Virus record (IMG/VR): IMGVR_UViG_2513237200_000006
Reading direction: 5' to 3' (one strand)
Length of the DNA stretch: 33,016 nt
Source: a virus
Lineage: Duplodnaviria > Heunggongvirae > Uroviricota > Caudoviricetes
Shown here: positions 476 through 31,510 of the stretch, piece by piece
Position numbering within the stretch: position 1 is the first letter of the stretch
Layout: each line of letters starts with the position of its first letter
The notes under the pieces: generated by a model
Seen by the model: only the letters and a program-made list of their open reading frames with translations
The model's database searches: none
Told to the model about the DNA's origin: nothing
Translations under genes and position numbers: made by a program

Positions 476-503
476 TAAAAAATAAGCCCGTGTAAGGGAG
501 ATT
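476..503. repeat. attL: attL core: 28-bp direct repeat TAAAAAATAAGCCCGTGTAAGGGAGATT
   Basis: Identical 28-mer recurs at 31483-31510. Matches the P2 27-bp att core as I recall it. Lies immediately downstream of int, as in P2 prophages. Confidence 0.85.
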
Positions 504-582
504 TAGGGTGTCACCTGTAGGGGCTTTCAACGGTACAATGCGGGTTTGAGCGGCATAAATTACCACTGAAAGCCCTTAAACG

Positions 583-1596
583 TTACTCTACTGTGGACAC
601 TGTGTGGACACTCTCGGCCTCAGTACCACCTCTTAGCGGATTAAGAGAAATGGCGTCCTGAAGGTACTCTGGCGCAAAATGAGCGTAAACCATAGTTTGC
701 TCAATCCGCGTGTGACCTAGTATCCGTTGTAGCGTGATAATACTTCCTCCATTAATCATGAAATGAGTGGCAAAGCTGTGCCTTAGTGCATGTGTGGCTT
801 GCCCCATTGGCAAATCTGGTTTTATTGCTTTCATTGTTCGTCTGAAGCGAGGGTAATCAGCATCAGGGAATAAAAAACCTCGTTTGTTATCCGCGATCAT
901 TTTGGCAACAGCCTCTGAGATCGGGACGGTGCGTGGTTTGTTTGTTTTCGTTTTAACAAACGTGACGCGGTTATGGATGATATTTTCTGCTTTCAAACGA
1001 GCTGCTTCTCCCCAACGTGCTCCTGTACTCAGGCAAAGAATCGCAATCTTTTTATTGTCGCCGTCAAGTGCTGCAAGCAGTAAGGCAATTTCTTCCTGTG
1101 TGAGATAGCCTGTTTCTGGTTTTTCCTCCTTAAGCCTCTTTGTCCCTCTGATAGGGTGCTCACCAAAGAATAACTCCGCTTCAATCAGGGCTGTAAACAT
1201 GCCGCTAATACATGTTAAATCACGATTGATACTCGAAGGTTTAATACCCTGACTTCTTCGGGTGGCGCAGTACTGGCTGATAAGGGATTTCGTGATTTGA
1301 AATGCGCATGGGTCATTCGTTATTTTTGTGAAGATTTCAATTTTTCCAAGATTAGATTTCCCATGCTCTTCGTGTTTACCCTTTAAATCCCACCAGATCT
1401 GTGTCAGTTCCGACAGACGTCGTTTGTCTGTTGGTTTTGATAGCCATTCTTTATTGTGGTGGTTGTACAACGTGTATTTTTCGAAAGCGACAGCTTCGCT
1501 TTTCTTATCAAACTTCCTACGGATGCGTTTTCCGTTACGTCCAGTAGGGCGGATGTCCACTTCATATCGACCATCATCGAGTTTTTTGATTGCCAT
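583..1596 (-). CDS. int: Tyrosine integrase (P2 Int-like, 337 aa)
   Basis: 337-aa ORF adjacent to attL. C-terminal catalytic region with …HALRHSFATH…LGH…VYAH… (R, H-x-x-R, Y motifs of tyrosine recombinases). Same length as P2 Int. GGAGGG RBS upstream of the ATG. Confidence 0.93.
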   Translation of the reverse strand: MAIKKLDDGRYEVDIRPTGRNGKRIRRKFDKKSEAVAFEKYTLYNHHNKEWLSKPTDKRRLSELTQIWWDLKGKHEEHGKSNLGKIEIFTKITNDPCAFQITKSLISQYCATRRSQGIKPSSINRDLTCISGMFTALIEAELFFGEHPIRGTKRLKEEKPETGYLTQEEIALLLAALDGDNKKIAILCLSTGARWGEAARLKAENIIHNRVTFVKTKTNKPRTVPISEAVAKMIADNKRGFLFPDADYPRFRRTMKAIKPDLPMGQATHALRHSFATHFMINGGSIITLQRILGHTRIEQTMVYAHFAPEYLQDAISLNPLRGGTEAESVHTVSTVE

Positions 1597-1711
1597 CAGA
1601 AAACCCTCCGAGTGGTACTTTTTTTTGCTACTACTAATCGCTTTTTTCGTGGTGGCTGAAATTTAGCCACCAATAGTAGGCACTTGTGATGAATATATTC
1701 ACGATAAATTG

Positions 1712-2011
1712 TTAACCAGTCTTTTGACCGGAGTGGGGCGACGTTGTTTCGTTTTGCCCAAAGTGTGCGAGAGCGGGCGCAATTTGCCCGGCTTCTGGAG
1801 CTACCTGATCAGTCATGAACCACAAAGTATATTTAGTAAATCTAGGATGTTGTAAGACCTTCATTATGGCTTCAACTCCAGCGTTTTTTGACCGGCTCTC
1901 ATAGCTCGAAAGTGAGCTGTAGGCTACACCAGTTAATTCACTGAATTCTTTACGGTTTAACCTTTCAGATTCACGGATTAGCTTCAACTTCTCCGAAACG
2001 TCTATTGACAT
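1712..2011 (-). CDS. C: Immunity repressor C (P2 C-like, 99 aa from the internal ATG at 2011)
   Basis: C-terminus …FTKYTLWFMTDQVAPEAGQIAPALAHFGQNETTSPHSGQKTG matches P2 C from memory. The ORF track's 123-aa form has a 24-aa N-terminal extension. The ATG at 2009-2011 has a GGAG RBS 6 nt upstream and gives the expected 99 aa. Transcribed divergently from cox. Confidence 0.85.
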   Translation of the reverse strand: MSIDVSEKLKLIRESERLNRKEFSELTGVAYSSLSSYESRSKNAGVEAIMKVLQHPRFTKYTLWFMTDQVAPEAGQIAPALAHFGQNETTSPHSGQKTG

Positions 2012-2132
2012 AATTACTCCGATTGCGTAATTTCTTGCTGATGGTGTGAAGCGTTGTACTTCTGGAGTTATCCTTTTAGGCAATAATTAGCCATTAGGAG
2101 CCATTAGAAGCACTAAGGGAGAATCGTAGCAG
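2012..2132. promoter_or_regulatory. Immunity switch region between C and cox: expected Pc/Pe promoters and C operator; contains tandem direct repeat AGCCATTAG (2089-2097, 2099-2107)
   Basis: Intergenic region between the divergently transcribed C and cox. Two 9-bp direct repeats spaced one helical turn apart lie just upstream of cox. By analogy with P2, C operators are direct repeats flanking Pe. Exact promoter hexamers not confidently assigned. Confidence 0.45.
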
Positions 2133-2408
2133 ATGAATAGACAGCTTGTAAGCGTGACTGATGCCGTGCCTTATCAGGAGTTTGCAAAACTCATTGGTAA
2201 AACTCCAAGAGCTGTAAGGGGCATGATTGAGAAAGGGAAATTACCAGTTATTGAGATTACTGACCCTCAGTCAGTATCGGGGCGTGCTGGTGAATATTGG
2301 GTATACCTTCCGGCATGGAATAACGGACTAAAACTGGCTTATGAAAGCCGTCCTAAAGAGATTCGTGACGGCTGGTTGATGTGGTTAGGTCTCGGTGAAC
2401 CTCGTTAA
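2133..2408 (+). CDS. cox: Cox (excisionase / early-operon repressor of Pc), 91 aa
   Basis: 91-aa ORF. Segment …GRAGEYWVYLPAWNNGLKLAYESRPKEIRDGWLMWLGLGEPR resembles P2 Cox from memory. First gene of the rightward early operon opposite C. Confidence 0.88.
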   Translation: MNRQLVSVTDAVPYQEFAKLIGKTPRAVRGMIEKGKLPVIEITDPQSVSGRAGEYWVYLPAWNNGLKLAYESRPKEIRDGWLMWLGLGEPR

Positions 2409-2418
2409 GGAGAACCGT

Positions 2419-2589
2419 ATGAATGAGCCTCGTTGTATTGCTCAGTTATTGCGTAACGAAAGCCCCAGGGCGATTGACTTCACCATCACCCACGGTAAGG
2501 GGCGTAAGGGAATCATTATCCGCACCAAAAAACAGAGTCCGTTAAAAAAGGCTCTGACCTTTCTGAAAAGCCGGAGGGTCTGGAAATGA
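2419..2589 (+). CDS. Small early-operon protein (P2 orf78-like), 56 aa from ATG 2419
   Basis: GGAG RBS at 2409-2412 precedes the internal ATG at 2419. The ORF track's start at 2395 would overlap cox. Position between cox and B as in P2. Confidence 0.5.
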   Translation: MNEPRCIAQLLRNESPRAIDFTITHGKGRKGIIIRTKKQSPLKKALTFLKSRRVWK

Positions 2590-3086
2590 CAGTGATGACG
2601 CTCAATCTCGTTGAAAAACAGCCTGCAGCTATGCGCCGGATAATTGGTAAGCATCTGGCCGTCCCTCGCTGGCAGGAGACATGCGATTATTATAATCAGA
2701 TGATGGAACGCGAACGGCTAACGGTTTGCTTCCATGCGCAGTTAAAACAGCGTCACGCAACGATGCGTTTTGAAGAAATGAACGACGTCGAACGTGAACG
2801 GCTGGTTTGTGCAATTGATGAATTGCGTGGGGCATTCTCAAAACGCCGTCGGGTTGGCGCAAGTGAGTATGCATATATTAGTTTTTTAACAGTCAGTCAG
2901 CGTCGTACTTTATTTATGCATGCCGGATTGACTGAAAAAGAATTCAACCAGCCATACTGGCGAATTAATGAAGAATCATGTTACTGGCGTGATGCTTTAT
3001 TCCGTGCATTACGTGAATTATTCAGCCTGTTTGAGTATGCACCGACAATTCTGACGTCGGTAAAACCAGAGCAATATCTGCATTAA
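2586..3086 (+). CDS. B: Replication protein B (helicase-loader-like), 166 aa
   Basis: 166 aa, the same length and position as P2 gpB. Start overlaps the stop of the preceding ORF (ATGA). Confidence 0.8.
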   Translation: MTVMTLNLVEKQPAAMRRIIGKHLAVPRWQETCDYYNQMMERERLTVCFHAQLKQRHATMRFEEMNDVERERLVCAIDELRGAFSKRRRVGASEYAYISFLTVSQRRTLFMHAGLTEKEFNQPYWRINEESCYWRDALFRALRELFSLFEYAPTILTSVKPEQYLH

Positions 3087-3673: not shown

Positions 3674-3675
3674 TA

Positions 3676-4172: not shown

Positions 4173-6438
4173 AGCCTCCGGGCGTTTTGTCCCTCCGTCA
4201 GCATTTGCCGCAGGCACCGGTAAGGCGTTTACCGGTGCTTATGCATGGAACGCGCCACGCGAGGCTGTCGGGCGCGAAAGACCCCTTACACGTGACGAGA
4301 TGCGTCAGGTGCAAGGTGTTTTATCCACGATTAACCGCCTGCCTTACTTTTTGCGCTCGCTGTTTACTTCACGCTATGACTACATCCGGCGCAATAAAAG
4401 CCCGGTACACGGGTTTTATTTCCTCACATCCACTTTTCAGCGTCGTTTATGGCCGCGCATTGAGCGTGTGAATCAGCGCCATGAAATGAACACCGACGCG
4501 TCGTTGCTGTTTCTGGCAGAGCGTGACCAGTATGCGCGTCTGCCGGGGATGAATGACAAGGAGCTGAAAAAGTTTGCCGCCCGTATCTCATCGCAGCTTT
4601 TCATGATGTATGAGGAACTCTGCGATGCCTGGGTGGATGCGCATGGCGAAAAAGAATCGCTGTTTACGGATGAGGCGCAGGCGCATCTGTATGGTCATGT
4701 TGCTGGCGCTGCACGTGCTTTCAATATTTCCCCGCTTTACTGGAAAAAATACCGTAAAGGACAGATGACCACGAGGCAGGCATATTCTGCCATTGCCCGT
4801 CTGTTTAACGATGAGTGGTGGACTCATCAGCTTAAAGGCCAGCGTATGCGCTGGCATGAAGCGTTACTGATAGCTGTCGGGGAGGTCAATAAAGACCGTT
4901 CTCCTTATGCCAGTAAACACGCCATTCGTGATGTGCGTGCGCGCCGCCAGGCAAATCTGGAATTTCTTAAATCGTGTGACCTTGAAAATAGGGAAACCGG
5001 CGAGCGCATCGACCTTATCAGTAAGGTGATGGGCAGTATTTCTAATCCTGAAATTCGCCGGATGGAGCTGATGAACACCATTGCCGGTATTGAGCGTTAC
5101 GCCGCTGCAGAGGGTGATGTGGGGATGTTTATCACGCTGACCGCGCCGTCAAAGTATCATCCGACACGTCAGGTAGGAAAAGGCGAAAGTAAAACCGTGC
5201 AGCTTAATCACGGCTGGAACGATGAGGCATTTAATCCAAAGGATGCGCAGCGTTATCTCTGCCGTATCTGGAGCCTGATGCGCACGGCATTCAAGGATAA
5301 TGATTTACAGGTCTACGGTTTGCGTGTCGTCGAGCCACACCACGACGGAACGCCGCACTGGCATATGATGCTTTTTTGTAATCCACGCCAGCGTAACCAG
5401 ATTATCGAAATCATGCGTCGCTATGCGCTCAAAGAGGATGGCGATGAAAGAGGAGCCGCGCGAAACCGTTTTCAGGCAAAACACCTTAACCGGGGCGGTG
5501 CTGCGGGATATATCGCGAAATACATTTCAAAAAACATCGACGGCTATGCACTGGATGGTCAGCTCGATAACGACACCGGCAGGCCGCTGAAAGACACTGC
5601 AGCGGCTGTTACCGCATGGGCGTCAACGTGGCGCATCCCGCAATTTAAAACGGTTGGCCTGCCGACAATGGGGGCTTACCGTGAACTACGCAAATTGCCT
5701 CGCGGCGTCAGCATTGCTGATGAGTTTGACGAGCGCGTCGAGGCTGCACGCGCCGCCGCAGACAGTGGTGATTTTGCGTTGTATATCAGCGCGCAGGGTG
5801 GGGCAAATGTCCCGCGCGATTGTCAGACTGTCAGGGTCGCCCGTAGCCCGTCGGATGACGTTAACGAGTACGAGGAAGAGGTCGAGAGAGTGGTCGGCAT
5901 TTACGCGCCGCATCTCGGCGCGCGTCATATTCATATCACCAGAACGACGAACTGGCGCATTGTGCCGAAAGTTCCGGTCGTCGAGCCTTTGACTTTAAAA
6001 AGCGGCATCGCCGCGCCTCGGAGTCCTGTCAATAACTGTGGAAAGCTCACCGGTGGTGATACTTCGTTACCGGCTCCCACACCTTCTGAGCACGCCGCAG
6101 CAGTGCTTAATCTGGTAGATGACGGTGTTATCGAATGGAGTGACCCGGAGGTCGTGATGGTGCTCAGGGGCGCATTAAAACACGGACTGAGAACACCAAA
6201 TCGTCAGCAAAGAAACGGAATCCCGTTAAAACCGCATGAAATTGCACCATCTGCCAGACTGACCAGGTCTGAACGATTGCAAATTACCCGTATCCGCGTT
6301 GACCTCGCTCAGAACGGTATCAGGCCGCAACGATGGGAGCTTGAGGCGCTGGCGCGTGGCGCGACCGTAAATTATGACGGGAAAAAATTCACGTATCCGG
6401 TTGCTGATGAGTGGCCGGGGTTCTCGTTACCCATTTGA
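4162..6438 (+). CDS. A: Replication initiation protein A (rolling-circle nicking endonuclease), about 758 aa from ATG 4162
   Basis: Large ORF. From the internal Met the N-terminus reads MAVKASGRFVPPSAFAAGTGK…, which matches P2 gpA as I recall it. Contains …EPHHDGTPHWHMMLF… (HUH-type metal-binding motif) and …AAGYIAKYISKNIDGY… (catalytic tyrosine region). Confidence 0.9.
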   Translation: MAVKASGRFVPPSAFAAGTGKAFTGAYAWNAPREAVGRERPLTRDEMRQVQGVLSTINRLPYFLRSLFTSRYDYIRRNKSPVHGFYFLTSTFQRRLWPRIERVNQRHEMNTDASLLFLAERDQYARLPGMNDKELKKFAARISSQLFMMYEELCDAWVDAHGEKESLFTDEAQAHLYGHVAGAARAFNISPLYWKKYRKGQMTTRQAYSAIARLFNDEWWTHQLKGQRMRWHEALLIAVGEVNKDRSPYASKHAIRDVRARRQANLEFLKSCDLENRETGERIDLISKVMGSISNPEIRRMELMNTIAGIERYAAAEGDVGMFITLTAPSKYHPTRQVGKGESKTVQLNHGWNDEAFNPKDAQRYLCRIWSLMRTAFKDNDLQVYGLRVVEPHHDGTPHWHMMLFCNPRQRNQIIEIMRRYALKEDGDERGAARNRFQAKHLNRGGAAGYIAKYISKNIDGYALDGQLDNDTGRPLKDTAAAVTAWASTWRIPQFKTVGLPTMGAYRELRKLPRGVSIADEFDERVEAARAAADSGDFALYISAQGGANVPRDCQTVRVARSPSDDVNEYEEEVERVVGIYAPHLGARHIHITRTTNWRIVPKVPVVEPLTLKSGIAAPRSPVNNCGKLTGGDTSLPAPTPSEHAAAVLNLVDDGVIEWSDPEVVMVLRGALKHGLRTPNRQQRNGIPLKPHEIAPSARLTRSERLQITRIRVDLAQNGIRPQRWELEALARGATVNYDGKKFTYPVADEWPGFSLPI

Positions 6439-6653
6439 GTAAAAACACAACGTGATTTGATATGGCATTGAATGGCTTATGCGGAGCAGTTATGGGGCAG
6501 CAGAAGGTCAATAGCATGCTGAATTAGAAGGCTAAATGCTATTGAGTGACTAGCATGTCGGTAAGGACAGCCGTTTGATCCGGGTCATAAAAGGCCATCC
6601 ATTTAGTCTAATAAAATCATTGCGGGTAACCTTATGTCGACGCATAATTCGTC

Positions 6654-6668
6654 TTGAGCGAAGTCTTG
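6654..6668. repeat. 15-bp direct repeat TTGAGCGAAGTCTTG (copy 1; copy 2 at 6918-6932)
   Basis: Exact 15-mer seen twice, about 264 bp apart, bracketing the terminator and the small ORF. Confidence 0.6.
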
Positions 6669-6698
6669 TCAGTCTTTCATCGTATTGATGATGGGCGC

Positions 6699-6728
6699 AA
6701 AAAAACCACCCTGGCAGGTGGTTTTTTT
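6699..6728. terminator. Bidirectional rho-independent terminator (A7-CCACC-CTGGCA-GGTGG-T7)
   Basis: Perfect hairpin flanked by a 7-A run on one side and a 7-T run on the other. Lies downstream of gene A and of the minus-strand small ORF. Confidence 0.7.
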
Positions 6729-6740
6729 GTTTGAAGCATA

Positions 6741-6854
6741 TTAAAGCATAATGCTGACATTGATATTACTGACGTTTACTGACAAACCACTTGGACTACC
6801 GTTTGGATAGCCAAAGAGGGCCAGAACGAGAATGCAGTAATAGCATTTCTTCAT
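6741..6854 (-). CDS. Possible small hydrophobic peptide (37 aa, MKKCYYCILVLALFGYPNG…)
   Basis: ATG at 6852-6854 (minus strand) preceded by a perfect AGGAGG with 5-nt spacing. Hydrophobic N-terminal segment. Followed by the bidirectional terminator. No homology asserted. Confidence 0.3.
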   Translation of the reverse strand: MKKCYYCILVLALFGYPNGSPSGLSVNVSNINVSIML

Positions 6855-6917
6855 ATTGCCTCCTGTAAGTAGAGGGCAACTTCCACCGGTATATGCGCTT
6901 CTTAGGTGGAATGACTT

Positions 6918-6932
6918 TTGAGCGAAGTCTTG
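6918..6932. repeat. 15-bp direct repeat TTGAGCGAAGTCTTG (copy 2)
   Basis: Exact match to 6654-6668. Confidence 0.6.
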
Positions 6933-7332
6933 CCCTGAAATAATGCTCTGTTTAAACGCAAAGTGATTTGGCATATCACCGAACAGAGAGCCGGAAAAAC
7001 ACAACATATAGTATGTCGTTGTTTCTAGACATACATTCTATGTTGTGTAACAAGGGCTTTGCATTAAACATGTTTGAGATTTTATTGATGTAGCTCAAAG
7101 TAAAAAACAGAGACTACGGATGATAAGGTCTTGAAAGCAATGTAAATTTTTTAAAGTTGCCAATTGCTTAAAAATGTACAGTTGCGGTATGGCGTACTTA
7201 AAAAGCTATGCATGCAACAAGTGAATGTTTTTGCATGCGCTGGGGATGTCCGTTCAGGCTGCGTGCGGTCAGGACTGGTGCGGATCCATAGTATCTATGC
7301 AACTGCATTAAAACCGCCCCGTGAAGCGGGCG

Positions 7333-7351
7333 GGCGAGGCGGGGAAAGCAC
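7333..7351 (+). other. cos: cos: 19-nt cohesive-end sequence GGCGAGGCGGGGAAAGCAC
   Basis: Exact match to the P2 cohesive-end 19-mer as I recall it. Lies between gene A and the portal gene Q, as expected for a P2 prophage. Confidence 0.75.
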
Positions 7352-7602: not shown

Positions 7603-9036
7603 ATGAAAAAGCAAAGTGAAATTAACGTAAAAAAATTAGCATCATGGAGATTTTCATTTAAAAACATTGGGTGTATCTCTACAGGAGAAATTAATGCAAA
7701 ACCTTTAACGCTTTTATGCGGAAAAAATAATACTGGTAAAACATGGGTTATGTATGGGTTATATGGCTTCCTAAATATGCCATCACCATCTTTAAAATTG
7801 CCTCAAGTTGCAAATTTTGCCAAAACTCTTCGTGAAAATGGTAAGTTTGAATTAGATGTAATTGAGTGGATAAAAGATAATTTTACGTTAATCAAAAGAG
7901 AATTTAATAAAGATTCATCTTTAATGCTTAAAGATGTATTCAACACTAATGATAAGGAAATTTTTTCTAATTCAACATTTGACTGGGTTATAGATGAAGA
8001 ATCATTAGTATCAAGTGTTTATGAAAAAAAATTGGATGTTAGCCTCGTCATAGGAACCGGCAAAAAAGAAGTAATGCTATTATCCAAAGATAAAAATAGC
8101 AATATCATACAAATGACGCTGCTAGATTCTGCTTTTCCCAGAATTGATGGGTTTATAAACTTAACTCTAAGTCAGTTATTAAAGATAGAGTATGATGAAA
8201 GCCCAGCATTTTTAATTCCCGCAGAAAGAAATGGCTTGCACCTTTTTTTCAATGAATTAAGTTCCAGAAGAACTGCGTTATTGCACCACGCCTCAAAAGA
8301 ACAGTTCGATCTGAACTCACTATTAATGGATGTAATGAAGTCTAAGTATTCTGCTCCTATAGCAAATTACATAGACTGGCTTAATGAAATTAAGGTTAAT
8401 AGGAAAAATAAAAATGGCCAATTTCATAAATTAGCAGAAGAAGTAAAAAAAATAATTTCAGGAAAATATTCAGTTGATCCTGAAGGGCAGATTTATTTTT
8501 CAACGTATAAGAAAGGTAAGACACCTGCAAGTAAAATTGAACTTCATTTATCGTCATCCACTGTTAAAAGTTTGTTTGGCCTGTGGTTTTATTTAGAGCA
8601 CCAAGCAAAAACTGGTGATATTTTAATGATTGACGAACCCGAGTTAAATTTACACCCGTCAAATCAGCGAGTAATTGCAAGATTTTTAGCAAAGCTAGTT
8701 AACTCTGGTATTCGGGTTATTGTTAGTACTCACAGTGATTATTTTGTGAAAGAAATCAATAGCTTGATTATGTTGCATGGCGTTTCTGAAAATATGATTG
8801 AAAAACGAAACGCTATCATGCAGAAGCAAGGGATTAGCATCGACTCAATTTTAGACTCTAACCTAGTCGCTGCGTATTTATTTGATAATGGCTCAGTCAA
8901 TGAAATGCAGAAGTCAAATGAAGGGATTAATGCTGTAACTTTTGATGAAGTAATTAATGCCATTAATGACGATAATGATGAAATATATTACTCCTTGGTG
9001 GAGAATGCCTCTGATAGTGAGGATGTAGATGAGTAA
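7603..9036 (+). CDS. Cargo protein 1: ABC/OLD-family (AAA_21-like) ATPase without a nuclease domain, 477 aa
   Basis: Walker A LLCGKNNTGKT near the N-terminus; signature-like HLSSST; Walker B/D-loop ILMIDEPELNLHP; H-loop VSTHSDYF; long insert between Walker A and B; acidic C-terminal tail. Codon usage is strongly AT-rich compared with the phage backbone. Confidence 0.8.
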   Translation: MKKQSEINVKKLASWRFSFKNIGCISTGEINAKPLTLLCGKNNTGKTWVMYGLYGFLNMPSPSLKLPQVANFAKTLRENGKFELDVIEWIKDNFTLIKREFNKDSSLMLKDVFNTNDKEIFSNSTFDWVIDEESLVSSVYEKKLDVSLVIGTGKKEVMLLSKDKNSNIIQMTLLDSAFPRIDGFINLTLSQLLKIEYDESPAFLIPAERNGLHLFFNELSSRRTALLHHASKEQFDLNSLLMDVMKSKYSAPIANYIDWLNEIKVNRKNKNGQFHKLAEEVKKIISGKYSVDPEGQIYFSTYKKGKTPASKIELHLSSSTVKSLFGLWFYLEHQAKTGDILMIDEPELNLHPSNQRVIARFLAKLVNSGIRVIVSTHSDYFVKEINSLIMLHGVSENMIEKRNAIMQKQGISIDSILDSNLVAAYLFDNGSVNEMQKSNEGINAVTFDEVINAINDDNDEIYYSLVENASDSEDVDE

Positions 9037-9601
9037 TATTATCAATGTAATACAAAGTTGCATCGATCCTACATTTCAATTAATGCGAGAGCAGGAATGC
9101 TGGGTTGTATGCGAAGAGAACCCAGGTGCTACAAATAAAAAATTACTGGTAAACGGAAATGGTATCTATGGATTTTCGCTAGATTCTAATAGTATTTCTA
9201 AACCAGTCTGGAAATTTTTAAAATCTTCTGCTTTACCAGGAGTATGCTCTGTTTGTGATGGAATTTTTGTTACGTCGCACAAAGACGTAGATTATTTTAT
9301 CGTAATAGATCTCAAATCTTATAACTCAAATGGTGCGGCTAAACAGGTAGTTACTGGCATTCATTTTTGTAAGTGGCTATATTCTGTATTGAATTTACAT
9401 GGGCATTTGTCAAGAAAAGTGGATTACATTGGTGTAATAAGTAAATTATCGAGGAGGCAGCAATCAGCTAAAAAAACAACTGTTCGCTCGCAATTGCCTC
9501 CTCCTGAAATTTGCTATAATTATCCTGTGTTTACATTGGAAAACTATAACAGATTATCACTGGCGCATATTTGTGACTTTATATACAATATGAAAAAATA
9601 A
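9029..9601 (+). CDS. Cargo protein 2: 190-aa protein of unknown function, possible PD-(D/E)xK-like or TOPRIM-like nuclease
   Basis: Start ATG overlaps the stop of the ATPase gene (ATGAGTAA), indicating translational coupling. Contains E-rich N-terminal strand (WVVCEEN), D in …VCDGIFV… followed 17 residues later by IVIDLK (a (D/E)xK-like motif), and a DVD triplet. The fold assignment is inference only. Confidence 0.6.
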   Translation: MSNIINVIQSCIDPTFQLMREQECWVVCEENPGATNKKLLVNGNGIYGFSLDSNSISKPVWKFLKSSALPGVCSVCDGIFVTSHKDVDYFIVIDLKSYNSNGAAKQVVTGIHFCKWLYSVLNLHGHLSRKVDYIGVISKLSRRQQSAKKTTVRSQLPPPEICYNYPVFTLENYNRLSLAHICDFIYNMKK

Positions 9602-20793: not shown

Positions 20794-21397
20794 TTCGCGA
20801 CTGCTGCCGACCGGCTCATCACCGCTTGAAGTTGCCGCCGCAAAAGCCTGTGCGGAAATTGAAAAAACGCCGGTCAGGATTCGTGAACTGTGGAACCCGG
20901 ACACCTGCCCGGCAAATCTGCTGCCGTGGCTGGCGTGGTCATTTTCGGTTGACCGCTGGGATGATAAGTGGCCGGAAGCGACAAAACGCGCTGTTATCCG
21001 CGATGCGTATTTCATTCACTGCCATAAGGGCACCATAGGCGCAATCCGGCGTGTGGTGGAGCCGCTTGGCTATCTGATTGAGGTGAGGGAGTGGTGGCAG
21101 CTCAACGAGGAGCCGGGGACGTTCCGCATCGTTGTTGGCGTGCTTGAGCAGGGTATTACCGAGAAAATGTATCAGGAGCTGGAGCGCCTCGTTGCTGATG
21201 CAAAACCGGCGAGCCGCCATCTGACGGGACTGGCTATCAGTTTAAGTACAACCGGCAACATTTTTGCCGGTGCGGGATGCTATCACGGTGACGCCCTGAC
21301 GGTTTATCCCTACACCCCGGAGGCCATTATTGTCGGAGGGGATTATTTCCCGGCCTCGGCCATTCATTTAATTGATAACCTGAGAGTAAACGCATGA
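20786..21397 (+). CDS. I: Baseplate/tail fibre attachment protein I, 203 aa
   Basis: Canonical position between J and H. Overlaps both neighbours. Confidence 0.8.
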   Translation: MSDSRLLPTGSSPLEVAAAKACAEIEKTPVRIRELWNPDTCPANLLPWLAWSFSVDRWDDKWPEATKRAVIRDAYFIHCHKGTIGAIRRVVEPLGYLIEVREWWQLNEEPGTFRIVVGVLEQGITEKMYQELERLVADAKPASRHLTGLAISLSTTGNIFAGAGCYHGDALTVYPYTPEAIIVGGDYFPASAIHLIDNLRVNA

Positions 21398-22677
21398 CAG
21401 TGAAATACTACGCCATTCTGACTAATCAGGGCGCAGCACGGCTGGCTAACGCGACGATGCTCGGCAGTAAGCTGAATCTGACGCAAATGGCCGTTGGTGA
21501 TGCGAATGGTGTCTTGCCGACACCAGACCCGGCACAGACAAAACTGATTAATCAGAAACGCATTGCACCGCTGAATCTTCTGAGTGTTGACCCGAACAAC
21601 CAGAGCCAGATTATTGCGGAGCAAATCATCCCTGAGAACGAGGGCGGATTCTGGATCCGTGAGATTGGGCTTTATGATGATGAAGGCGTACTCATTGCGG
21701 TGGCGAACTGCCCGGAAACGTACAAACCGCAGTTACAGGAAGGCAGCGGTCGTACCCAGACTATCCGCATGATTCTGGTTGTCACGAATACCGAAGCTAT
21801 CACGCTGAAAATCGACCCGTCGGTGGTACTGGCGACCCGTAAATACGTGGATGATGAAGTCCTGGAATTAAGGCTGTATGTGGATGACCAGATGAGAAAC
21901 CACATTGCCGCACAGGACCCTCATACCCAGTATGCCCAGAAACATAATCCGACATTTACCGGAGAACCAAAAGCGCCGACGCCTGCCGCAGGAAATAACA
22001 CCACGCGGATTGCGACTACTGCGTTTGTTCAGGCCGCTATTACCGCTCTGATTAACGGTGCGCCTGCCACGCTGGATACACTGAAAGAAATTGCCGCAGC
22101 CATTAACAATGACCCGAAATTCAGCACCACCATTAACAATGCGCTGTCAGGTAAGCAACCACTGGATGAGACGCTGACTCATTTGAGTGGAAAAGATGTG
22201 GCTGGTCTTCTCGCATACCTTGGTTTGGGAGAAGGTGCTCCAGCTATTGGCGTTCCGTTCTTCTGGCCCTCCGCGGCAATGCCAAATACTGTAATCGACA
22301 GCTGGTCCAGTATGGTGTTTTTGAAGTTTAACGGGGCGAAATTTTCTGCCTCTGATTACCCTGTGCTGGCGAAAGTGTTTCCTTCGCTGGTATTACCTGA
22401 AGCCCGCGGTGATTTCATTCGTGTCTGGGATGACGGGCGAGGTGCAGATGGTGGTCGCGAATTATTAAGCTGGCAGGAAGCTACAAACTTTTCTCAGTTT
22501 GCCGGGAATATAGGCGGAGGTGCTGGACACGCAATTAACTTTCATGATGGCATCGCCGGAAATCAGCCAGGATTTTCACGATTTAATTTCAACAGTAACT
22601 CTGTGGGTGATGGTGTGAATTTTGTTGCTGTCAGACCGCGAAATATTGCATTTAACTTTCTGGTGAGGGCTAAATAA
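21394..22677 (+). CDS. H: Tail fibre protein H (P2-like N-terminus fused to an invertible, Mu S/lambdoid-Stf-like C-terminal receptor-binding part), 427 aa in current orientation
   Basis: N-terminus (…REIGLYDDEGVLIAVAN…GSGRTQTIRMILV…) resembles the P2 H anchor. C-terminal part (…DYPVLAKVFPSLVLPEARGDFIRVWDDGRGADGGR…) resembles side tail fibre C-termini. The crossover repeat lies inside the gene at 22220-22234. Confidence 0.85.
   Translation: MTVKYYAILTNQGAARLANATMLGSKLNLTQMAVGDANGVLPTPDPAQTKLINQKRIAPLNLLSVDPNNQSQIIAEQIIPENEGGFWIREIGLYDDEGVLIAVANCPETYKPQLQEGSGRTQTIRMILVVTNTEAITLKIDPSVVLATRKYVDDEVLELRLYVDDQMRNHIAAQDPHTQYAQKHNPTFTGEPKAPTPAAGNNTTRIATTAFVQAAITALINGAPATLDTLKEIAAAINNDPKFSTTINNALSGKQPLDETLTHLSGKDVAGLLAYLGLGEGAPAIGVPFFWPSAAMPNTVIDSWSSMVFLKFNGAKFSASDYPVLAKVFPSLVLPEARGDFIRVWDDGRGADGGRELLSWQEATNFSQFAGNIGGGAGHAINFHDGIAGNQPGFSRFNFNSNSVGDGVNFVAVRPRNIAFNFLVRAK
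22220..22234. repeat. Left inversion crossover site (gix/hix-like): TTGGTTTGGGAGAAG; perfect 15-bp inverted repeat with 24046-24060
   Basis: Exact reverse complement present at 24046-24060. Encodes GLGE in both H and the alternative fibre segment, in frame. Resembles the GGTTTTGGATAA half of Gin/Hin recombination sites as recalled. Confidence 0.75.
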
Positions 22678-23270
22678 TGAAACCTGTTTTTGATGAAAAT
22701 GGGCTGGCTACAGTGCCGGGTGATATGCGTTGTTTTTATTATGATGCAGTAACGTCTGAATATACGGGCTGGTCTGATGAATATATTAATACTGGCGTAA
22801 GTATGCCCGCCTGTTCCACTGGTATTGACCCGGACGAAAACATTCCGGGAAGAGTGGCAGTATTTACAGGTAAGGGATGGAGCCATGAGGAAGACCATCG
22901 CAATGAGACTGTTTACTCAATCGAAAATGGCGCAGCTGTTACAGTGGATTATATCGGTGCCATCAAAAACGGTTATGTCACGCTTTCACCGTTAACGCCA
23001 TATGATAAATGGGATGGTGAGAAATGGGTGACAGATACTGAGGCACAACACGGTGCCGCAGTAGAAGCGGCAGAAGCACAGCGCCAGTCACTGATTGATG
23101 CAGCAATGGCTTCCATTAGTCTGATTCAGCTGAAATTACAGGCCGGGCGGAAACTGACGCAGGCAGAAACAACCCGGCTTAACGCTGTGCTGGATTACAT
23201 TGACGCGGTGACGGCAACAGATACCAGCACCGCGCCGGATATCATCTGGCCTGAACAGCCGGAGGCGTAG
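22677..23270 (+). CDS. G: Tail fibre assembly chaperone (G/Tfa, U-type), 197 aa
   Basis: C-terminal …LDYIDAVTATDTSTAPDIIWPEQPEA is a typical Tfa signature. Immediately follows H inside the invertible segment. Confidence 0.85.
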   Translation: MKPVFDENGLATVPGDMRCFYYDAVTSEYTGWSDEYINTGVSMPACSTGIDPDENIPGRVAVFTGKGWSHEEDHRNETVYSIENGAAVTVDYIGAIKNGYVTLSPLTPYDKWDGEKWVTDTEAQHGAAVEAAEAQRQSLIDAAMASISLIQLKLQAGRKLTQAETTRLNAVLDYIDAVTATDTSTAPDIIWPEQPEA

Positions 23271-23682
23271 GCCATTCAATATCTGGAGCACTGGAAATAT
23301 CAACCATTTCCAGTGCGTCCAGATAATCAAGCCATGAATTATATTGCGCCAGTTCCTCACCTTTCAGACGACCAATAGCAGCCTTTCCTAGCCACTGCTT
23401 ACTGTTAATATATTCATTAACTCGATTTATGAGTGCCTGTTTTTTTCGTTCCGCTTCTGACAGTTGTTCTTCATGAGTTAGCGGCGGTACGTCATCCCAT
23501 GCAGGATAGCCATCATCACCCGCAACTCTCACCTTCCCAGGAGGTGGGGACAGGTACTTAATAAATATATCCTCATCAACTTCAACTCCATTATGAGGCC
23601 ATAACCCAGACTCCTTATACTGACTTTCCAGAGTAAATGGGTAAAACATATTAGTTTTTGCATCGTAAAGATATTTACTCAT
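23242..23682 (-). CDS. Alternative tail fibre assembly chaperone (U'-type), 146 aa from ATG 23682
   Basis: Opposite-strand Tfa with C-terminal …LDYLDALEMVDISSAPDIEWPTPP. Internal Met start has an AGGA RBS. Convergent with G inside the invertible segment. Confidence 0.8.
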   Translation of the reverse strand: MSKYLYDAKTNMFYPFTLESQYKESGLWPHNGVEVDEDIFIKYLSPPPGKVRVAGDDGYPAWDDVPPLTHEEQLSEAERKKQALINRVNEYINSKQWLGKAAIGRLKGEELAQYNSWLDYLDALEMVDISSAPDIEWPTPPAVQAR

Positions 23683-23683
23683 T

Positions 23684-24046
23684 TTATCTTCCTGTAGCAA
23701 ACCAGCGGCAACCAGCGACAGTTGGAACATTGAAGGATGGATTTCCTTTATCAAGAGATCCCAGGTTCTCTGCTATGACATTTGAGTTAGTCAATTTATA
23801 GAATTGCCATACTGACATTTTCCCTGCCACAGGAGCCTGGTCATGTTCATTAATAGAAATGACGGCTGTCGGAAATGGGATAGGAAAATTAATCAAAACT
23901 TCATTTGTTGTGGCCTCAGTTAGCCCCCATTGTTCAATATAACCATCCGGGCTTCGCCTCCATCCCGTCGTTGTATCTCCCCCACACTCCCACGCTGACA
24001 TATCAGGAATTTGGTTTTGCCCGTTACCCACATCCCGTTTTGCCGC
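23684..24046 (-). CDS. Alternative tail fibre C-terminal segment (Sv'-like), promoterless and start-less in this orientation
   Basis: Minus-strand reading frame runs from the right crossover repeat (encoding …VGLGE…) to a stop at 23684, directly upstream of the U'-type tfa. Inversion would fuse it in frame to the H N-terminus. Confidence 0.7.
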   Translation of the reverse strand, partial: AAKRDVGNGQNQIPDMSAWECGGDTTTGWRRSPDGYIEQWGLTEATTNEVLINFPIPFPTAVISINEHDQAPVAGKMSVWQFYKLTNSNVIAENLGSLDKGNPSFNVPTVAGCRWFATGR

Positions 24047-24060
24047 TTCTCCCAAACCAA
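24046..24060. repeat. Right inversion crossover site (inverted copy of 22220-22234)
   Basis: CTTCTCCCAAACCAA is the exact reverse complement of the left site. Lies about 70 bp upstream of the invertase start. Confidence 0.75.
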
Positions 24061-24127
24061 CGTTTATGAAAATGCAGAGATAACGGGCAACTGGCATCAT
24101 CTCCGGTTTTTATTCAGGGGGATGCTC

Positions 24128-24721
24128 ATGCTTATTGGCTATGTACGCGTGTCAACAAATGACCAGAATACGGAATTGCAGCGTAACGCGCTGGAGTGCG
24201 CAGGATGTGAGCTGATTTTTGAGGACAAAATCAGCGGCACGAAGTCCGACAGGCCGGGACTGAAAAAACTGCTCAGGACATTATCGGAGGGGGATACACT
24301 GGTAGTCTGGAAGCTGGACCGGCTGGGGCGTAGTATGCGGCATCTGGTCATTCTGGTTGAGGAGCTGCGCGAACGCGGCGTTAATTTTCGCAGCCTGACG
24401 GATGCTATTGATACCAGCACGCCGATGGGGCGTTTTTTCTTTCATGTGATGGGTGCCCTGGCCGAAATGGAACGAGAACTCATTGTCGAGCGGACACGCG
24501 CCGGACTGGAAGCGGCCAGAGCCAAAGGTCGTATTGGTGGCAGACGACCGAAACTCACCGCGAGTGAGTGGGAGCAGGCCGGGCGTTTGCTGGCTGCAGG
24601 GGAGTCACGTCAACGCGTGGCACTGATTTTTGATATTGGTCTGTCCACGCTCTATAAAAAATTTCCCTCATCAGCGACAAAGAATAAATTGTGTCATCCC
24701 TTAGCCAACCGGGACAAATAG
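24128..24721 (+). CDS. Serine DNA invertase (Gin/Pin/Hin family), about 197 aa from ATG 24128
   Basis: N-terminus MLIGYVRVSTNDQNTELQRNAL… contains the catalytic Ser of the resolvase/invertase family and closely resembles Gin/Pin as recalled. C-terminal HTH (…GLSTLYKK…). The ORF track's upstream extension is rejected. Confidence 0.9.
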   Translation: MLIGYVRVSTNDQNTELQRNALECAGCELIFEDKISGTKSDRPGLKKLLRTLSEGDTLVVWKLDRLGRSMRHLVILVEELRERGVNFRSLTDAIDTSTPMGRFFFHVMGALAEMERELIVERTRAGLEAARAKGRIGGRRPKLTASEWEQAGRLLAAGESRQRVALIFDIGLSTLYKKFPSSATKNKLCHPLANRDK

Positions 24722-29426: not shown

Positions 29427-29440
29427 GGAGGTGACGAAAA

Positions 29441-29920
29441 ATGATGCTCGCGTTAGGTATGTTTGTTTTTATGCGCCAGACGCTGCCACACCAGACCATG
29501 CAGCGTGAATCAGATTATCGCTGGCCGTCAAATTCCCGTATCGGCAAACGGGATGCCTTTCAGTTTCTCGGTGTGGGTGAGGAAAACATTACGCTTGCCG
29601 GTGTGCTTTATCCCGAACTGACCGGCGGAAAGCTGACGATGACCACGCTCAGACTGATGGCAGAGGAAGGCCGGGCGTGGCCGTTGCTGGATGGCACCGG
29701 AATGATTTACGGCATGTATGTCATCAGCAAGGTGAGTGAAACAGGGAGTATTTTCTTTGCAGATGGCACACCCCGAAAAATTGATTTTACGCTGTCGCTC
29801 ACCCGCGTTGATGAATCACTGGCCGCGCTTTATGGCGATATCGGTAAACAGGCGGAATCGCTCATCGGTAAGGCTGGCAGTATGGCGACTAAATTCACGG
29901 GTATGACGGGGGCGGGATAA
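29441..29920 (+). CDS. U: Tail protein U, 159 aa
   Basis: 159 aa as P2 gpU. Confidence 0.88.
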   Translation: MMLALGMFVFMRQTLPHQTMQRESDYRWPSNSRIGKRDAFQFLGVGEENITLAGVLYPELTGGKLTMTTLRLMAEEGRAWPLLDGTGMIYGMYVISKVSETGSIFFADGTPRKIDFTLSLTRVDESLAALYGDIGKQAESLIGKAGSMATKFTGMTGAG

Positions 29921-31083
29921 TGCTGGATGCGCTGACATTTGATGCAGGCAGTACGCTGACGCCGGATTACATGCTGATGCTCGACAGCAGGGATATTACC
30001 GGCAATATCAGCGACCGTCTGATGAGCATGACCCTGACGGATAACCGGGGCTTTGAGGCTGACCAGCTTGATATTGAACTGAACGATGCCGACGGGCAGG
30101 TCGGACTACCGATTCGTGGCGCTGTCCTGACGGTGTATATCGGCTGGAAAGGTTTTGCCCTGGTATGCAAAGGGAAATTTACCGTTGATGAGGTTGAACA
30201 CCGGGGCGCACCGGATGTGGTCACCATCCGCGCCCGGAGTGCAGATTTTCGCGGGACGCTCAATTCCCGCCGTGAAGGCTCATGGCATGACACCACGCTC
30301 GGTGCGATTGTTGAGGCGATAGCCTCCCGTAACAGGCTGGAAGCCAGTGTCGCTCCGTCACTGGCCGGAATTAAAATCCCGCACATCGACCAGTCGCAGG
30401 AGTCTGATGCGAAATTTCTGACCCGTCTTGCAGAACGCAACGGCGGTGAGGTGTCGGTAAAAATGGGAAAACTGCTGTTTCTCAAAGCGGGGCAGGGGGT
30501 GACTGCCAGCGGTAAAAAAATCCCGCAGATTACCCTCACCCGCAGCGACGGTGACCGTCATCATTTTGCGATTGCTGACCGTGGAGCCTATACCGGCGTA
30601 ACGGCAAAGTGGTTACACACCAAAGACCCGAAGCCGCAAAAGCAGAAGGTAAAACTGAAACGCAAAAAGAAAGAGAAACACCTGCGCGCACTGGAGCACC
30701 CGAAAGCGAAACCAGTCACGCAGAAGAAAGCGCCAAAAGTACCGGAAGCGCGTGAAGGTGAATACATGGCCGGTGAGGCTGATAACGTTTTTGCCCTGAC
30801 CACGGTATATGCCACGAAAGCACAGGCCATGCGCGCCGCTCAGGCGAAGTGGGATAAACTGCAACGGGGTGTAGCGGAGTTCTCCATCAGTCTGGCTACT
30901 GGTCGGGCAGATATTTACACGGAAACGCCGGTCAAAGTGTCAGGCTTTAAGCGCGTCATAGACGAGCAGGACTGGACAATCACTAAGGTGACACATTTTC
31001 TGAATAATAGCGGCTTCACGACGTCCTTGGAGCTTGAGGTCAGGCTTTCTGATGTGGAGTACGAAACCGAAGATGATGAGTGA
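29920..31083 (+). CDS. D: Tail protein D, 387 aa
   Basis: 387 aa as P2 gpD. Last structural gene before ogr. Confidence 0.88.
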   Translation: MLDALTFDAGSTLTPDYMLMLDSRDITGNISDRLMSMTLTDNRGFEADQLDIELNDADGQVGLPIRGAVLTVYIGWKGFALVCKGKFTVDEVEHRGAPDVVTIRARSADFRGTLNSRREGSWHDTTLGAIVEAIASRNRLEASVAPSLAGIKIPHIDQSQESDAKFLTRLAERNGGEVSVKMGKLLFLKAGQGVTASGKKIPQITLTRSDGDRHHFAIADRGAYTGVTAKWLHTKDPKPQKQKVKLKRKKKEKHLRALEHPKAKPVTQKKAPKVPEAREGEYMAGEADNVFALTTVYATKAQAMRAAQAKWDKLQRGVAEFSISLATGRADIYTETPVKVSGFKRVIDEQDWTITKVTHFLNNSGFTTSLELEVRLSDVEYETEDDE

Positions 31084-31100
31084 TGTTTTGTTTTATCTGT

Positions 31101-31129
31101 TTGTTTTATAAGGATAAATTAACTAAAAT
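31101..31129 (+). promoter_or_regulatory. Putative sigma70 promoter of ogr (-35 TTGTTT, 17-bp spacer, -10 TAAAAT)
   Basis: Hexamers read directly from the sequence, about 35 bp upstream of the ogr ATG. Not experimentally supported here. Confidence 0.4.
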
Positions 31130-31163
31130 GGCACCATCAACAAAACCGGAAGAGGTGCTCGCG

Positions 31164-31382
31164 ATGTTTCATTGTCCTTTATGCCAGCATGCCGCACATG
31201 CGCGTACAAGTCGCTATATCACTGACACGACAAAAGAGCGTTATCACCAGTGCCAGAACGTGAATTGCAGCGCCACGTTCATCACTTATGAGTCGGTACA
31301 GCGATACATCGTGAAGCCGGGAGAAGTCCACGCCGTAAGACCGCACCCGTTGCCGTCAGGGCAGCAAATTATGTGGATGTAA
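31164..31382 (+). CDS. ogr: Late-gene transcriptional activator Ogr (C4 zinc finger), 72 aa from ATG 31164
   Basis: MFHCPLCQHAAHARTSRYITDTTKERYHQCQNVNCSATF… matches P2 Ogr as recalled (CxxC…CxxxxC zinc finger). GAGGTG RBS. The ORF track's 100-aa form has a spurious N-terminal extension. Confidence 0.9.
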   Translation: MFHCPLCQHAAHARTSRYITDTTKERYHQCQNVNCSATFITYESVQRYIVKPGEVHAVRPHPLPSGQQIMWM

Positions 31383-31393
31383 TTACAAACAGG

Positions 31394-31419
31394 AAGCCCC
31401 TCAGTCGAGGGGCTTTTTT
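31394..31419 (+). terminator. Rho-independent terminator after ogr (GCCCCTC-AGTC-GAGGGGC + T6)
   Basis: Perfect 7-bp GC-rich stem with a 4-nt loop followed by TTTTTT. Confidence 0.8.
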
Positions 31420-31482
31420 GTCGATGTGGTCAATGTGTGGACGTGACCAGAAATAAATCCTTTTATTTCATTGTATTACGCG

Positions 31483-31510
31483 TAAAAAATAAGCCCGTGT
31501 AAGGGAGATT
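31483..31510. repeat. attR: attR core: 28-bp direct repeat identical to 476-503; doubles as the cyaR 3' end
   Basis: Exact repeat. Overlaps the 3' terminator portion of cyaR. Confidence 0.85.

What the first reader, a model, noticed from the sequence alone, without database searches (positions are those of the whole stretch)
476..31510. Integration into the 3' end of the sRNA gene cyaR, with the att core regenerating the cyaR terminator and a second copy sitting downstream of int
The 28-bp att repeat is the last 27-28 nt of cyaR (terminator hairpin plus U-tract). Integration therefore leaves cyaR intact at attR (31484-31570, minus strand). At attL the same sequence sits on the minus strand directly downstream of int, where it would be expected to act as a terminator for the C-int transcript. 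The site is an sRNA gene rather than a tRNA gene.
Basis: partly seen in the sequence, partly recalled or inferred. Interest (0 to 1): 0.5.

Follow-up and report, generated by a model that had tools for sequence, protein, structure and literature searches.

The report
P2 prophage at cyaR attachment site
A complete P2-type prophage sits at phage P2's long-known attachment site at the 3' end of the cyaR small-RNA gene; the 28-bp repeat keeps cyaR intact, but the copy next to int holds only half of the terminator hairpin and is not predicted to terminate transcription.

Summary
An exact 28-bp direct repeat (476-503 and 31483-31510) brackets a 31-kb prophage, and the right copy is the 3' end of a full-length cyaR (Rfam 100.7 bits). 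Joining the two host flanks with one core gives a sequence 100% identical to the unoccupied yegR-cyaR-yegQ locus of E. coli A31. Joining the two prophage ends gives phage P2's own annotated attP (98.6% over 928 nt). Int is 337/337 identical to P2 Int. About 15% of complete E. coli genomes (811/5426) carry the same attL junction.

This is P2's classical preferred site. The literature already lists cyaR/ryeE as a P2 prophage target, and the K-12 ogrK-D' remnant lies there.

The second claim fails. The repeat holds only the loop, the 3' stem arm and the U-tract. Nine of the 11 bases of the 5' arm lie outside it. At attL the in-register hairpin is +9.3 kcal/mol, against -15.5 at attR, and no terminator is detected.

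In passing: the "empty" site already carries a degenerate relic of an older P2-like P arm. The prophage also carries a PD-T4-4 defence pair and an invertible tail-fibre segment.

Verdict: already known, low interest.

The parts
1..318 (+). yegR, the host gene on the left flank
   Evidence: ORF of 105 aa. Annotated yegR under the match in E. coli genomes.
385..475 (.). Degenerate relic of an older P2-like P arm. It forms part of the 'empty' attB flank in nearly all E. coli.
   Evidence: 416-464 is 71% identical to 31407-31455, at the equivalent offset from the core, and includes an exact 15-mer TCGATGTGGTCAATG (D1). It is present in unoccupied strains and in K-12, to the left of the truncated attL core. 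5405 of 5426 genomes match this query, which begins with the flank and core.
476..503 (+). attL core: the 28-bp identity block, a non-functional 3' fragment of cyaR
   Evidence: Exact repeat. No hairpin and no terminator call. No CyaR match.
504..617 (.). P' arm of attP. It holds the Cox-binding region (about 520-593) and the Int arm-type repeats TGTGGACAC x2 (about 591-617).
   Evidence: One mismatch to P2 over this stretch. Site coordinates transferred from the P2 record, window = P2 - 23879.
583..1596 (-). int, the tyrosine integrase
   Evidence: 337/337 aa identical to P2 Int. Pfam Int_N 1.3e-24 and Phage_integrase 8.7e-22.
1715..2011 (-). C, the immunity repressor; its N-terminal HTH half has diverged from P2
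   Evidence: 65% identical to P2 C over 99 aa, with the C-terminal 39 residues nearly identical. Pfam HTH_3.
2133..2408 (+). cox, the excisionase and repressor of Pc
   Evidence: Pfam Phage_Cox 1.7e-42. 84% identical to P2 Cox.
476..31510 (.). Complete P2-type (Peduovirus) prophage, including both cores
   Evidence: Collinear with P2 at 95-98% DNA identity, apart from three replaced segments. All P2 replication, head, lysis and tail genes are full length except H, which matches P2 only over its first 256 of 669 aa; G is replaced by a tail-fibre assembly gene unlike P2's. The cos site is at 7333-7351.
31164..31382 (+). ogr, the late-gene activator and last prophage gene
   Evidence: 72/72 aa identical to P2 Ogr. 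Pfam Ogr_Delta 1.1e-21.
31393..31416 (+). Terminator of ogr and the F operon
   Evidence: Coordinates transferred from the P2 annotation, window = P2 + 7128. The hairpin was detected at 31394-31415.
31421..31485 (.). P arm: Int arm-type sites (31421-31448) and the IHF site (31452-31485)
   Evidence: Coordinates transferred from the P2 annotation. Five mismatches to P2, all in the IHF-site-to-core interval.
31483..31510 (+). attR core; it supplies the loop, the 3' stem arm and the U-tract of cyaR
31484..31572 (-). cyaR (ryeE), an intact sRNA gene. Its terminator hairpin is at 31519-31492.
   Evidence: Rfam RF00112, 100.7 bits, full length at 31487-31572. Hairpin energy -15.5 kcal/mol, z = -6.1.
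31655..33016 (-). yegQ/trhP, the host gene on the right flank
   Evidence: ORF of 453 aa. Annotation in matching genomes.

Best explanation
Bases 476-31510 are an intact prophage of a very close relative of coliphage P2. It was inserted by P2 Int-mediated site-specific recombination at P2's classical chromosomal attachment site, which overlaps the 3' end of the CRP-dependent sRNA gene cyaR.

The phage attP and the host attB share a 28-bp identity block. After crossover within that block, the prophage is flanked by two copies. At attR the block is joined to the rest of cyaR. The block carries the loop, the descending arm of the terminator stem and the U-tract, so the sRNA gene is rebuilt base for base. 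At attL the block is joined to the phage P' arm, 79 nt beyond the int stop codon. There it is only a 3' fragment of cyaR. It lacks the ascending stem arm and is not expected to act as an intrinsic terminator.

Shown here: the repeat, the intact cyaR, the empty site, the attP, and the identity of Int.

Inferred from established knowledge of P2: the requirement for IHF in integration and for Cox in excision, and crossover inside the core.
For: - The 28-bp repeat is exact and no shuffle reproduced it.
- cyaR is full length at attR.
- The predicted empty site is 100% identical to E. coli A31 in one piece. At least 80% of it is present in one place in 4565 of 5426 genomes.
- Similarity of unoccupied genomes to the attL junction ends exactly at the core edge. 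811 of 5426 genomes have the occupied junction.
- The predicted attP matches P2 (AF063097) at 98.6% over 928 nt in one piece. The central 250 bp have 7 mismatches and span all the annotated Int, IHF and Cox sites.
- Int is 100% identical to P2 Int. Cox is present.
- The P2 gene set is present. DNA similarity to P2 begins at 476, which aligns with P2 24355, and ends at 31510, which aligns with P2 24382.
- K-12 has the ogrK-D' remnant at the same place, with a truncated attL core fused directly to D'.
- Archer et al. 2011 list 'cyaR RNA' as the insertion site of P2-type prophages in strains W, K-12 and B (PMC3032704).
- Bobay et al. 2013 state that ryeE was already known to be targeted by phages (PMC3603311).
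- Nilsson et al. 2011 place the P2 site at MG1655 coordinate 2165238 (PMC3448106). From memory, that is at the cyaR/ogrK junction.
Against: Nothing found contradicts it. The exact crossover position within the 28 bp cannot be read from the sequence. Whether the prophage can excise and grow was not tested. The immunity region (C N-terminus, operators, cox 5' end; 1841-2155) differs from P2, so this is not P2 itself.
Confidence: 0.96

Rival explanations
1. One reading: the attL copy of the core acts as the intrinsic terminator of the C-int transcript.
For: A U-tract (UUAUUUUUU) does lie 79-100 nt after the int stop codon on the int strand. A weak alternative pairing, AGCCCC...GGGCUU (6 bp closing a ~29-nt interior), can form with P' arm sequence at -10 kcal/mol. 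No other canonical terminator was seen between int and yegR.
Against: - Nine of the 11 bases of the 5' stem arm lie outside the repeat. The in-register helix at attL has 5 non-contiguous pairs and +9.3 kcal/mol, against -15.5 at attR.
- The 37-nt fold has z = +0.5 and the 47-nt fold z = -1.26, neither distinguishable from shuffles.
- In a 131-nt context the AGCCCC segment is taken up by a much stronger upstream hairpin, total -36.5 kcal/mol.
- The terminator scan finds nothing on the - strand.
- The P2 record annotates no terminator there.
- The sequence 5' of the U-tract is the same in attP and attL. Any such activity would be a property of P2 attP, not a result of integration into cyaR.
Confidence: 0.1
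2. The phage did not enter a pristine host site. It entered the attR-like end of a much older, almost fully deleted P2-like prophage, so the attL 'host' arm is itself of phage origin. This refines the main explanation rather than excluding it.
For: - 416-464 resembles the phage P arm (31407-31455) at the same offset from the core. It has an exact 15-mer and an 8-mer, and a 16-bp gap where the IHF site would be (D1).
- The chance expectation for a 15-mer shared between two ~150-bp stretches is about 2e-5 (my estimate).
- The same relic lies to the left of the truncated attL core in K-12, so it predates that prophage too.
- It is present in a divergent E. coli-labelled genome (L004) and in 5405 of 5426 E. 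coli genomes.
Against: No sequenced phage in the phage collection carries this variant arm, so the source is unidentified. Identity is only 71% overall. The exact 28-mer was found only in Escherichia among the species representatives, and the relic was not examined outside that genus.
Confidence: 0.7
3. The repeat is a chance match, a transposition target-site duplication, or a product of homologous recombination unrelated to Int.
For: None found.
Against: Zero of 100 shuffles gave two matches. The reciprocal joins reproduce a real attB and the annotated P2 attP exactly. Int is identical to P2 Int.
Confidence: 0.01

Closest known systems
Coliphage P2 attP / Int / IHF / Cox recombination module and its preferred E. 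coli site (called locI in the P2 literature: Barreiro & Haggard-Ljungquist 1992, cited; content recalled from memory)
   Same: Int is 100% identical. attP is 97-99% identical, with all annotated binding sites. The core is the same. The chromosomal position between yegR and yegQ at the cyaR 3' end is the same.
   Different: The identity block here is 28 bp, against the 27 annotated in P2; the extra T is also present in P2 at position 24355. The C repressor N-terminus and operator region differ from P2. The cargo genes and the tail-fibre module differ.
E. coli K-12 ogrK-D' cryptic P2 remnant next to cyaR
   Same: Same site and same attR (ogr, P arm, core, cyaR). Its left end keeps the same flank and the left part of the attL core.
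   Different: In K-12 everything from inside the attL core to the middle of gene D is deleted. Here the prophage is complete.
Integration into the 3' ends of tRNA and tmRNA genes (phage 186 in tRNA-Ile; Fels-2 and SopE-phi in ssrA) and into the Salmonella sdsR/ryeB sRNA locus
   Same: The same logic applies. The phage carries a copy of the 3' end of a small structured-RNA gene, so integration rebuilds the gene (PMC3448106; PMC3333887; PMC3603311).
   Different: The target is the Rho-independent terminator of an Hfq-dependent sRNA, not a tRNA-like stem.
Phage lambda sib retroregulation of int
   Different: sib lies across attP from int and is separated from it by integration. Here the sequence 5' of the core on the int mRNA is unchanged by integration, and no comparable hairpin abuts the U-tract.

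Membership tests
CyaR/RyeE sRNA (Rfam RF00112) | Covariance-model score above the curated gathering threshold over the full model | tested here: met
   100.7 bits against 47, model positions 1-85 of 85, at 31487-31572 (-).
CyaR/RyeE sRNA (Rfam RF00112) | Intact Rho-independent terminator (stem-loop plus U-tract) at the 3' end | tested here: met
   11-bp stem, 6-nt loop, tail TATTTTTT. Energy -15.5 kcal/mol, z = -6.1.
CyaR/RyeE sRNA (Rfam RF00112) | Expression, CRP dependence and Hfq binding | not testable with these tools
   No expression data available.
P2-type site-specific recombination module | Heterobivalent tyrosine integrase of the P2 type | tested here: met
   337/337 identical to P2 Int. 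Pfam Int_N and Phage_integrase.
P2-type site-specific recombination module | attP with Int arm sites on the P and P' arms, an IHF site and Cox boxes around the core | tested here: met
   The reconstructed attP differs from the annotated P2 attP at 7 of 250 positions.
P2-type site-specific recombination module | Core identical at attL and attR and present once at an unoccupied attB | tested here: met
P2-type site-specific recombination module | Cox recombination directionality factor | tested here: met
   Pfam Phage_Cox 1.7e-42. 84% identical to P2 Cox.
P2-type site-specific recombination module | Strand exchange within the core; integration and excision activity | not testable with these tools
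   Needs excision PCR or in vitro recombination.
Peduovirus (P2-like phage) | Collinear P2 gene set (Q P O N M L X Y K R S V W J I H FI FII E T U D ogr int C cox B A) and a cos site | tested here: met
   All are found full length at 82-100% aa identity, apart from C (65%) and H, of which only the N-terminal 256 of 669 aa match, at 42%. DNA collinearity. cos at 7333-7351.
Intrinsic (Rho-independent) terminator at attL | A stable G+C-rich hairpin immediately followed by a U-tract | tested here: not met
   The U-tract is present but the hairpin is absent: 5 of 11 non-contiguous pairs, +9.3 kcal/mol; z = +0.5; no hit in the terminator scan.

The most novel reading that the evidence does not exclude
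The nearly universal E. coli 'empty' site is a fossil attR. It keeps about 90 bp of an older P2-like P arm, including one surviving Int arm-type repeat (TGTGGTCAA), immediately beside the core. If that relic still binds the N-terminal domain of Int, it could help make this site the strongly preferred P2 target. It would also make attL here an attP-like (P-relic / core / P') site with altered excision behaviour.
Probability: 0.08. Interest if true: 0.3.

Novelty: already known. Interest (0 to 1): 0.08.

Why it matters
It matters little as a discovery. P2's attachment site, its overlap with the cyaR/ryeE 3' end, and the K-12 remnant there have been in the literature for decades, and about 15% of complete E. 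coli genomes carry the same junction. The practical value is annotation: exact prophage boundaries, an intact cyaR, and a correction. The attL copy should not be annotated as a terminator or as a second cyaR.

Tried and rejected
- I searched attL (300-700) against all Rfam families at E <= 10, looking for a partial CyaR. None was found.
- I looked for a terminator on the int strand at attL by consensus scan, by local folds of 37, 47, 91 and 131 nt and by an in-register energy evaluation. None was convincing.
- I looked for the source phage of the left-flank relic in the phage collection. Only records that include host flank matched: vB_EcoM-720R8, and 'Phage TP', which is a K-12-like ogr remnant next to yegQ.
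- I tried to read the primary papers. The following are not held in the library, so their content is cited from memory or through secondary sources:
  - Wassarman 2001 (PMC312727)
  - De Lay & Gottesman 2009 (PMC2620814)
  - Karlsson 2006 (PMC1482927)
  - Barreiro & Haggard-Ljungquist 1992 (PMC206120)
  - Yu et al. 1994 on P2 int regulation (PMC236345)
- Literature searches for 'P2 prophage' with cyaR, and for the split-operon model, gave nothing usable.
- I considered locating the crossover by treating the two terminator arms as inverted core-type Int sites flanking the 6-nt loop. The attP half-site does not match the attB 5' arm (5 of 11), so the position cannot be placed from sequence. I left it as inference.
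Full report
**1. The observation**

The sequence TAAAAAATAAGCCCGTGTAAGGGAGATT occurs exactly twice in the window, at 476-503 and 31483-31510, on the same strand. None of 100 dinucleotide-preserving shuffles gave two matches (family D5).

Rfam finds a single family in the 33 kb: CyaR_RyeE at 31487-31572 on the minus strand. It scores 100.7 bits against a gathering score of 47 and matches the full model without truncation. The right copy of the repeat is therefore the 3' end of cyaR.

The left copy lies 79 nt beyond the stop codon of a 337-aa ORF (583-1596, minus strand), on the same strand as that ORF.

**2. What it is**

I built the two reciprocal joins that a site-specific integration predicts.

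(a) The empty site. The host flanks joined through one core (1-503 plus 31511-32300, 1293 nt) match E. coli strain A31 at 100% identity in one uninterrupted piece. At least 80% of this join is found in one place in 4565 of 5426 complete E. coli genomes. The features under the match are annotated yegR and yegQ/trhP. When the attL junction (330-720) is used as the query, genomes without the prophage align only up to query position 174. That is window 503, the last base of the core. 811 of 5426 genomes (15%) carry the whole junction.

(b) The attP. The prophage ends joined through one core (31080-31510 plus 504-1000, 928 nt) match bacteriophage P2 itself (AF063097/NC_001895) at 98.6% in a single piece. 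The central 250 bp differ from P2 at 7 positions. They span the features annotated in the P2 record:
- the ogr terminator
- the Int P-arm sites
- the IHF site
- the 27-bp core
- the Cox-binding region
- the Int P'-arm sites

The integrase is 337/337 identical to P2 Int. Cox is 84% identical and Ogr is 72/72 identical.

The element is collinear with P2 at 95-98% DNA identity. Similarity starts exactly at 476, which aligns with P2 24355, and ends exactly at 31510, which aligns with P2 24382. All P2 replication, head, lysis and tail genes are full length, except that H matches P2 only over its first 256 of 669 aa and G is replaced by a tail-fibre assembly gene unlike P2's. The cos site is at 7333-7351.

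So 476-31510 is an apparently intact prophage of a very close P2 relative, sitting at P2's own attachment site.

**3. How it works**

Shown here: attP and attB share a 28-bp block, and the prophage is bounded by two copies of it.

The cyaR terminator hairpin spans 31519-31492. It has an 11-bp stem (AGCCUGUGUAA / UUACACGGGCU), a 6-nt loop (UCUCCC) and the tail UAUUUUUU. The identity block (31483-31510) covers the last 2 bases of the ascending arm, the loop, the whole descending arm and the U-tract. Joined to the host side at attR, it rebuilds cyaR base for base. The hairpin energy is -15.5 kcal/mol with z = -6.1.

Inferred from established P2 biology: Int plus IHF carries out integration, Cox is needed for excision, and strand exchange occurs within the core.

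My own inference, not tested: in attB the two terminator arms form a perfect inverted repeat around a 6-bp spacer. That is the usual geometry of core-type tyrosine-recombinase sites. It parallels the use of tRNA stem-loops, where the identity block runs from the crossover to the 3' end of the gene.

**4. The terminator claim at attL**

Nine of the 11 bases of the ascending stem arm lie outside the repeat. At attL they are replaced by P' arm sequence (GACACCCUA).

- In register, only 5 of 11 positions can pair, none of them in a run longer than two. The structure costs +9.3 kcal/mol.
- Folding the 37 nt that end at the U-tract gives -4.4 kcal/mol (z = +0.5). The best hairpin adjacent to the U-tract is a 3-bp CCC/GGG stem.
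- With 47 nt, a 6-bp pairing AGCCCC/GGGCUU closes a ~29-nt interior at -10 kcal/mol (z = -1.26).
- In a 131-nt context that AGCCCC segment is captured by a much stronger upstream hairpin in the Cox-binding region.
- The consensus terminator scan detects the cyaR terminator at attR but nothing on the minus strand at attL.
- Rfam reports no CyaR fragment there even at E <= 10.
- The RNA 5' of the core is P' arm in both the free phage and the prophage. Integration into cyaR therefore cannot create a terminator that attP lacks.
- The P2 record annotates none.

I put about 10% on measurable termination at that U-tract. Only 3' end mapping can settle it.

**5. Comparison with what is known**

This is already known.
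- Archer et al. 2011 (PMC3032704, Table 2) list 'cyaR RNA' as the insertion site of P2-type prophages in E. coli W (Wphi2) and B (P2*B), and of the ogr-D' remnant in K-12.
- Bobay et al. 2013 (PMC3603311) state that ryeE in E. coli was previously known to be targeted by phages, citing Wassarman et al. 2001.
- Nilsson et al. 2011 (PMC3448106) give the P2 integration site as MG1655 coordinate 2165238. From memory, that is the cyaR/ogrK junction.
- The site and the K-12 remnant were described by Barreiro & Haggard-Ljungquist 1992. The reference was seen, but the paper is not held, so its content is from memory.

Targeting of structured-RNA 3' ends (tRNA, tmRNA, sdsR/ryeB) is the general class to which this belongs.

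**6. Things seen on the way**

(a) The relic. The host arm of attL is itself phage-like. 416-464 is 71% identical to the phage P arm (31407-31455) at the same offset from the core. It includes an exact 15-mer containing one Int arm-type repeat, and it has a 16-bp gap where the IHF site would be. This relic is present in unoccupied strains, in a divergent E. coli-labelled genome (L004) and in K-12. The query that begins with this flank and the core matches 5405 of 5426 E. coli genomes. The species' 'empty' site therefore looks like the last trace of a still older P2-like prophage. No phage in the collection carries that arm variant.

(b) The K-12 junction. In K-12 the same flank and the left part of the attL core (…ATAAAAAAATAAGCCCGTGTA) are fused directly to the middle of gene D. 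This is what an internal deletion of a prophage like this one would leave.

(c) Divergence from P2. The C repressor is only 65% identical to P2 C, with the differences in the N-terminal HTH half, and the operator region is unalignable. The phage is probably heteroimmune to P2.

(d) Cargo. A PD-T4-4 defence pair lies at 7603-9036 and 9029-9601, between cos and gene Q. P2's tin, old, orf30 and Z/fun are absent. The tail-fibre region carries a Gin/Cin/Pin-type serine invertase (24011-24721), oppositely oriented fibre-tip and assembly genes, and a 27-nt inverted repeat at 22208-22234 / 24046-24072. Together these indicate an invertible host-range segment.

**7. Verdict**

The integration-into-cyaR interpretation is confirmed, but it describes a textbook system. 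The attL-terminator interpretation is not supported. Novelty: already known. Interest: low.

Noticed in passing
window 385-475: The 'host' flank to the left of attL is a degenerate relic of a P2-like P arm. It is 71% identical to 31407-31455 and includes an exact 15-mer containing one Int arm-type repeat. It has a 16-bp gap at the IHF-site position. It also has a different hairpin (about 385-416) where the ogr terminator would sit. The relic is present in unoccupied E. coli genomes and in K-12, so it predates the current prophage.
   Followed up: partly
L001 1801-2100 (E. coli K-12), compared with window 319-503: The K-12 ogrK-D' remnant starts with the same flank and the left part of the attL core (…AAAAAAATAAGCCCGTGTA), fused directly to the middle of gene D. 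This fits an internal deletion (attL core to D) of a full prophage at this site, possibly through GTGTA microhomology.
   Followed up: partly
window 7603-9601: A two-gene PD-T4-4 anti-phage defence system. Gene A is 7603-9036 (PADLOC 2e-112, AAA_15 ATPase) and gene B is 9029-9601 (1e-15). It is inserted between cos (7333-7351) and gene Q, where P2 has only about 190 bp.
   Followed up: partly
window 6426-7330: The P2 orf91-tin-old region is replaced by about 0.9 kb. It holds only an 88-aa ORF (6741-7007, minus strand) with no Pfam, PHROGs or PADLOC match.
   Followed up: partly
window 21394-24721: The tail-fibre module is unlike P2's. It comprises a shorter H (427 aa), two oppositely oriented tail-fibre assembly genes (22677-23270 + and 23242-23754 -), an inverted fibre C-terminal ORF (23684-24100 -) and a serine DNA invertase (24011-24721; PHROG DNA invertase 5e-102). 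A 27-nt inverted repeat lies at 22208-22234 / 24046-24072. This looks like a Mu G / P1 C-type invertible host-range segment in place of P2 Z/fun.
   Followed up: partly
window 1715-2155: The immunity region is mosaic. The C repressor is 65% identical to P2 C (N-terminal HTH diverged, C-terminal 39 residues nearly identical). The Pe/Pc operator region does not align with P2. Int is 100% identical. The phage is probably heteroimmune to P2.
   Followed up: partly
window 510-575 (minus strand): A long imperfect inverted repeat lies in the P' arm and Cox-binding region, directly after the int stop codon. The 131-nt fold has -36.5 kcal/mol and z = -2.8. It would form a strong hairpin in the 3' UTR of the int mRNA. 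It is not followed by a U-tract.
   Followed up: no
H76, NZ_CP026085.1 (labelled E. coli DH5alpha): A genome labelled DH5alpha carries the occupied attL junction at 100% identity. The K-12 genome examined here (GM4792) has only the ogrK-D' remnant at this site. The label or strain history may be wrong.
   Followed up: no
L004 (CP178302.1), about 480 bp upstream of the core: The yegR region of this 4.44-Mb E. coli-labelled genome shows several single-base indels relative to the window. These could be assembly errors or pseudogenisation.
   Followed up: no
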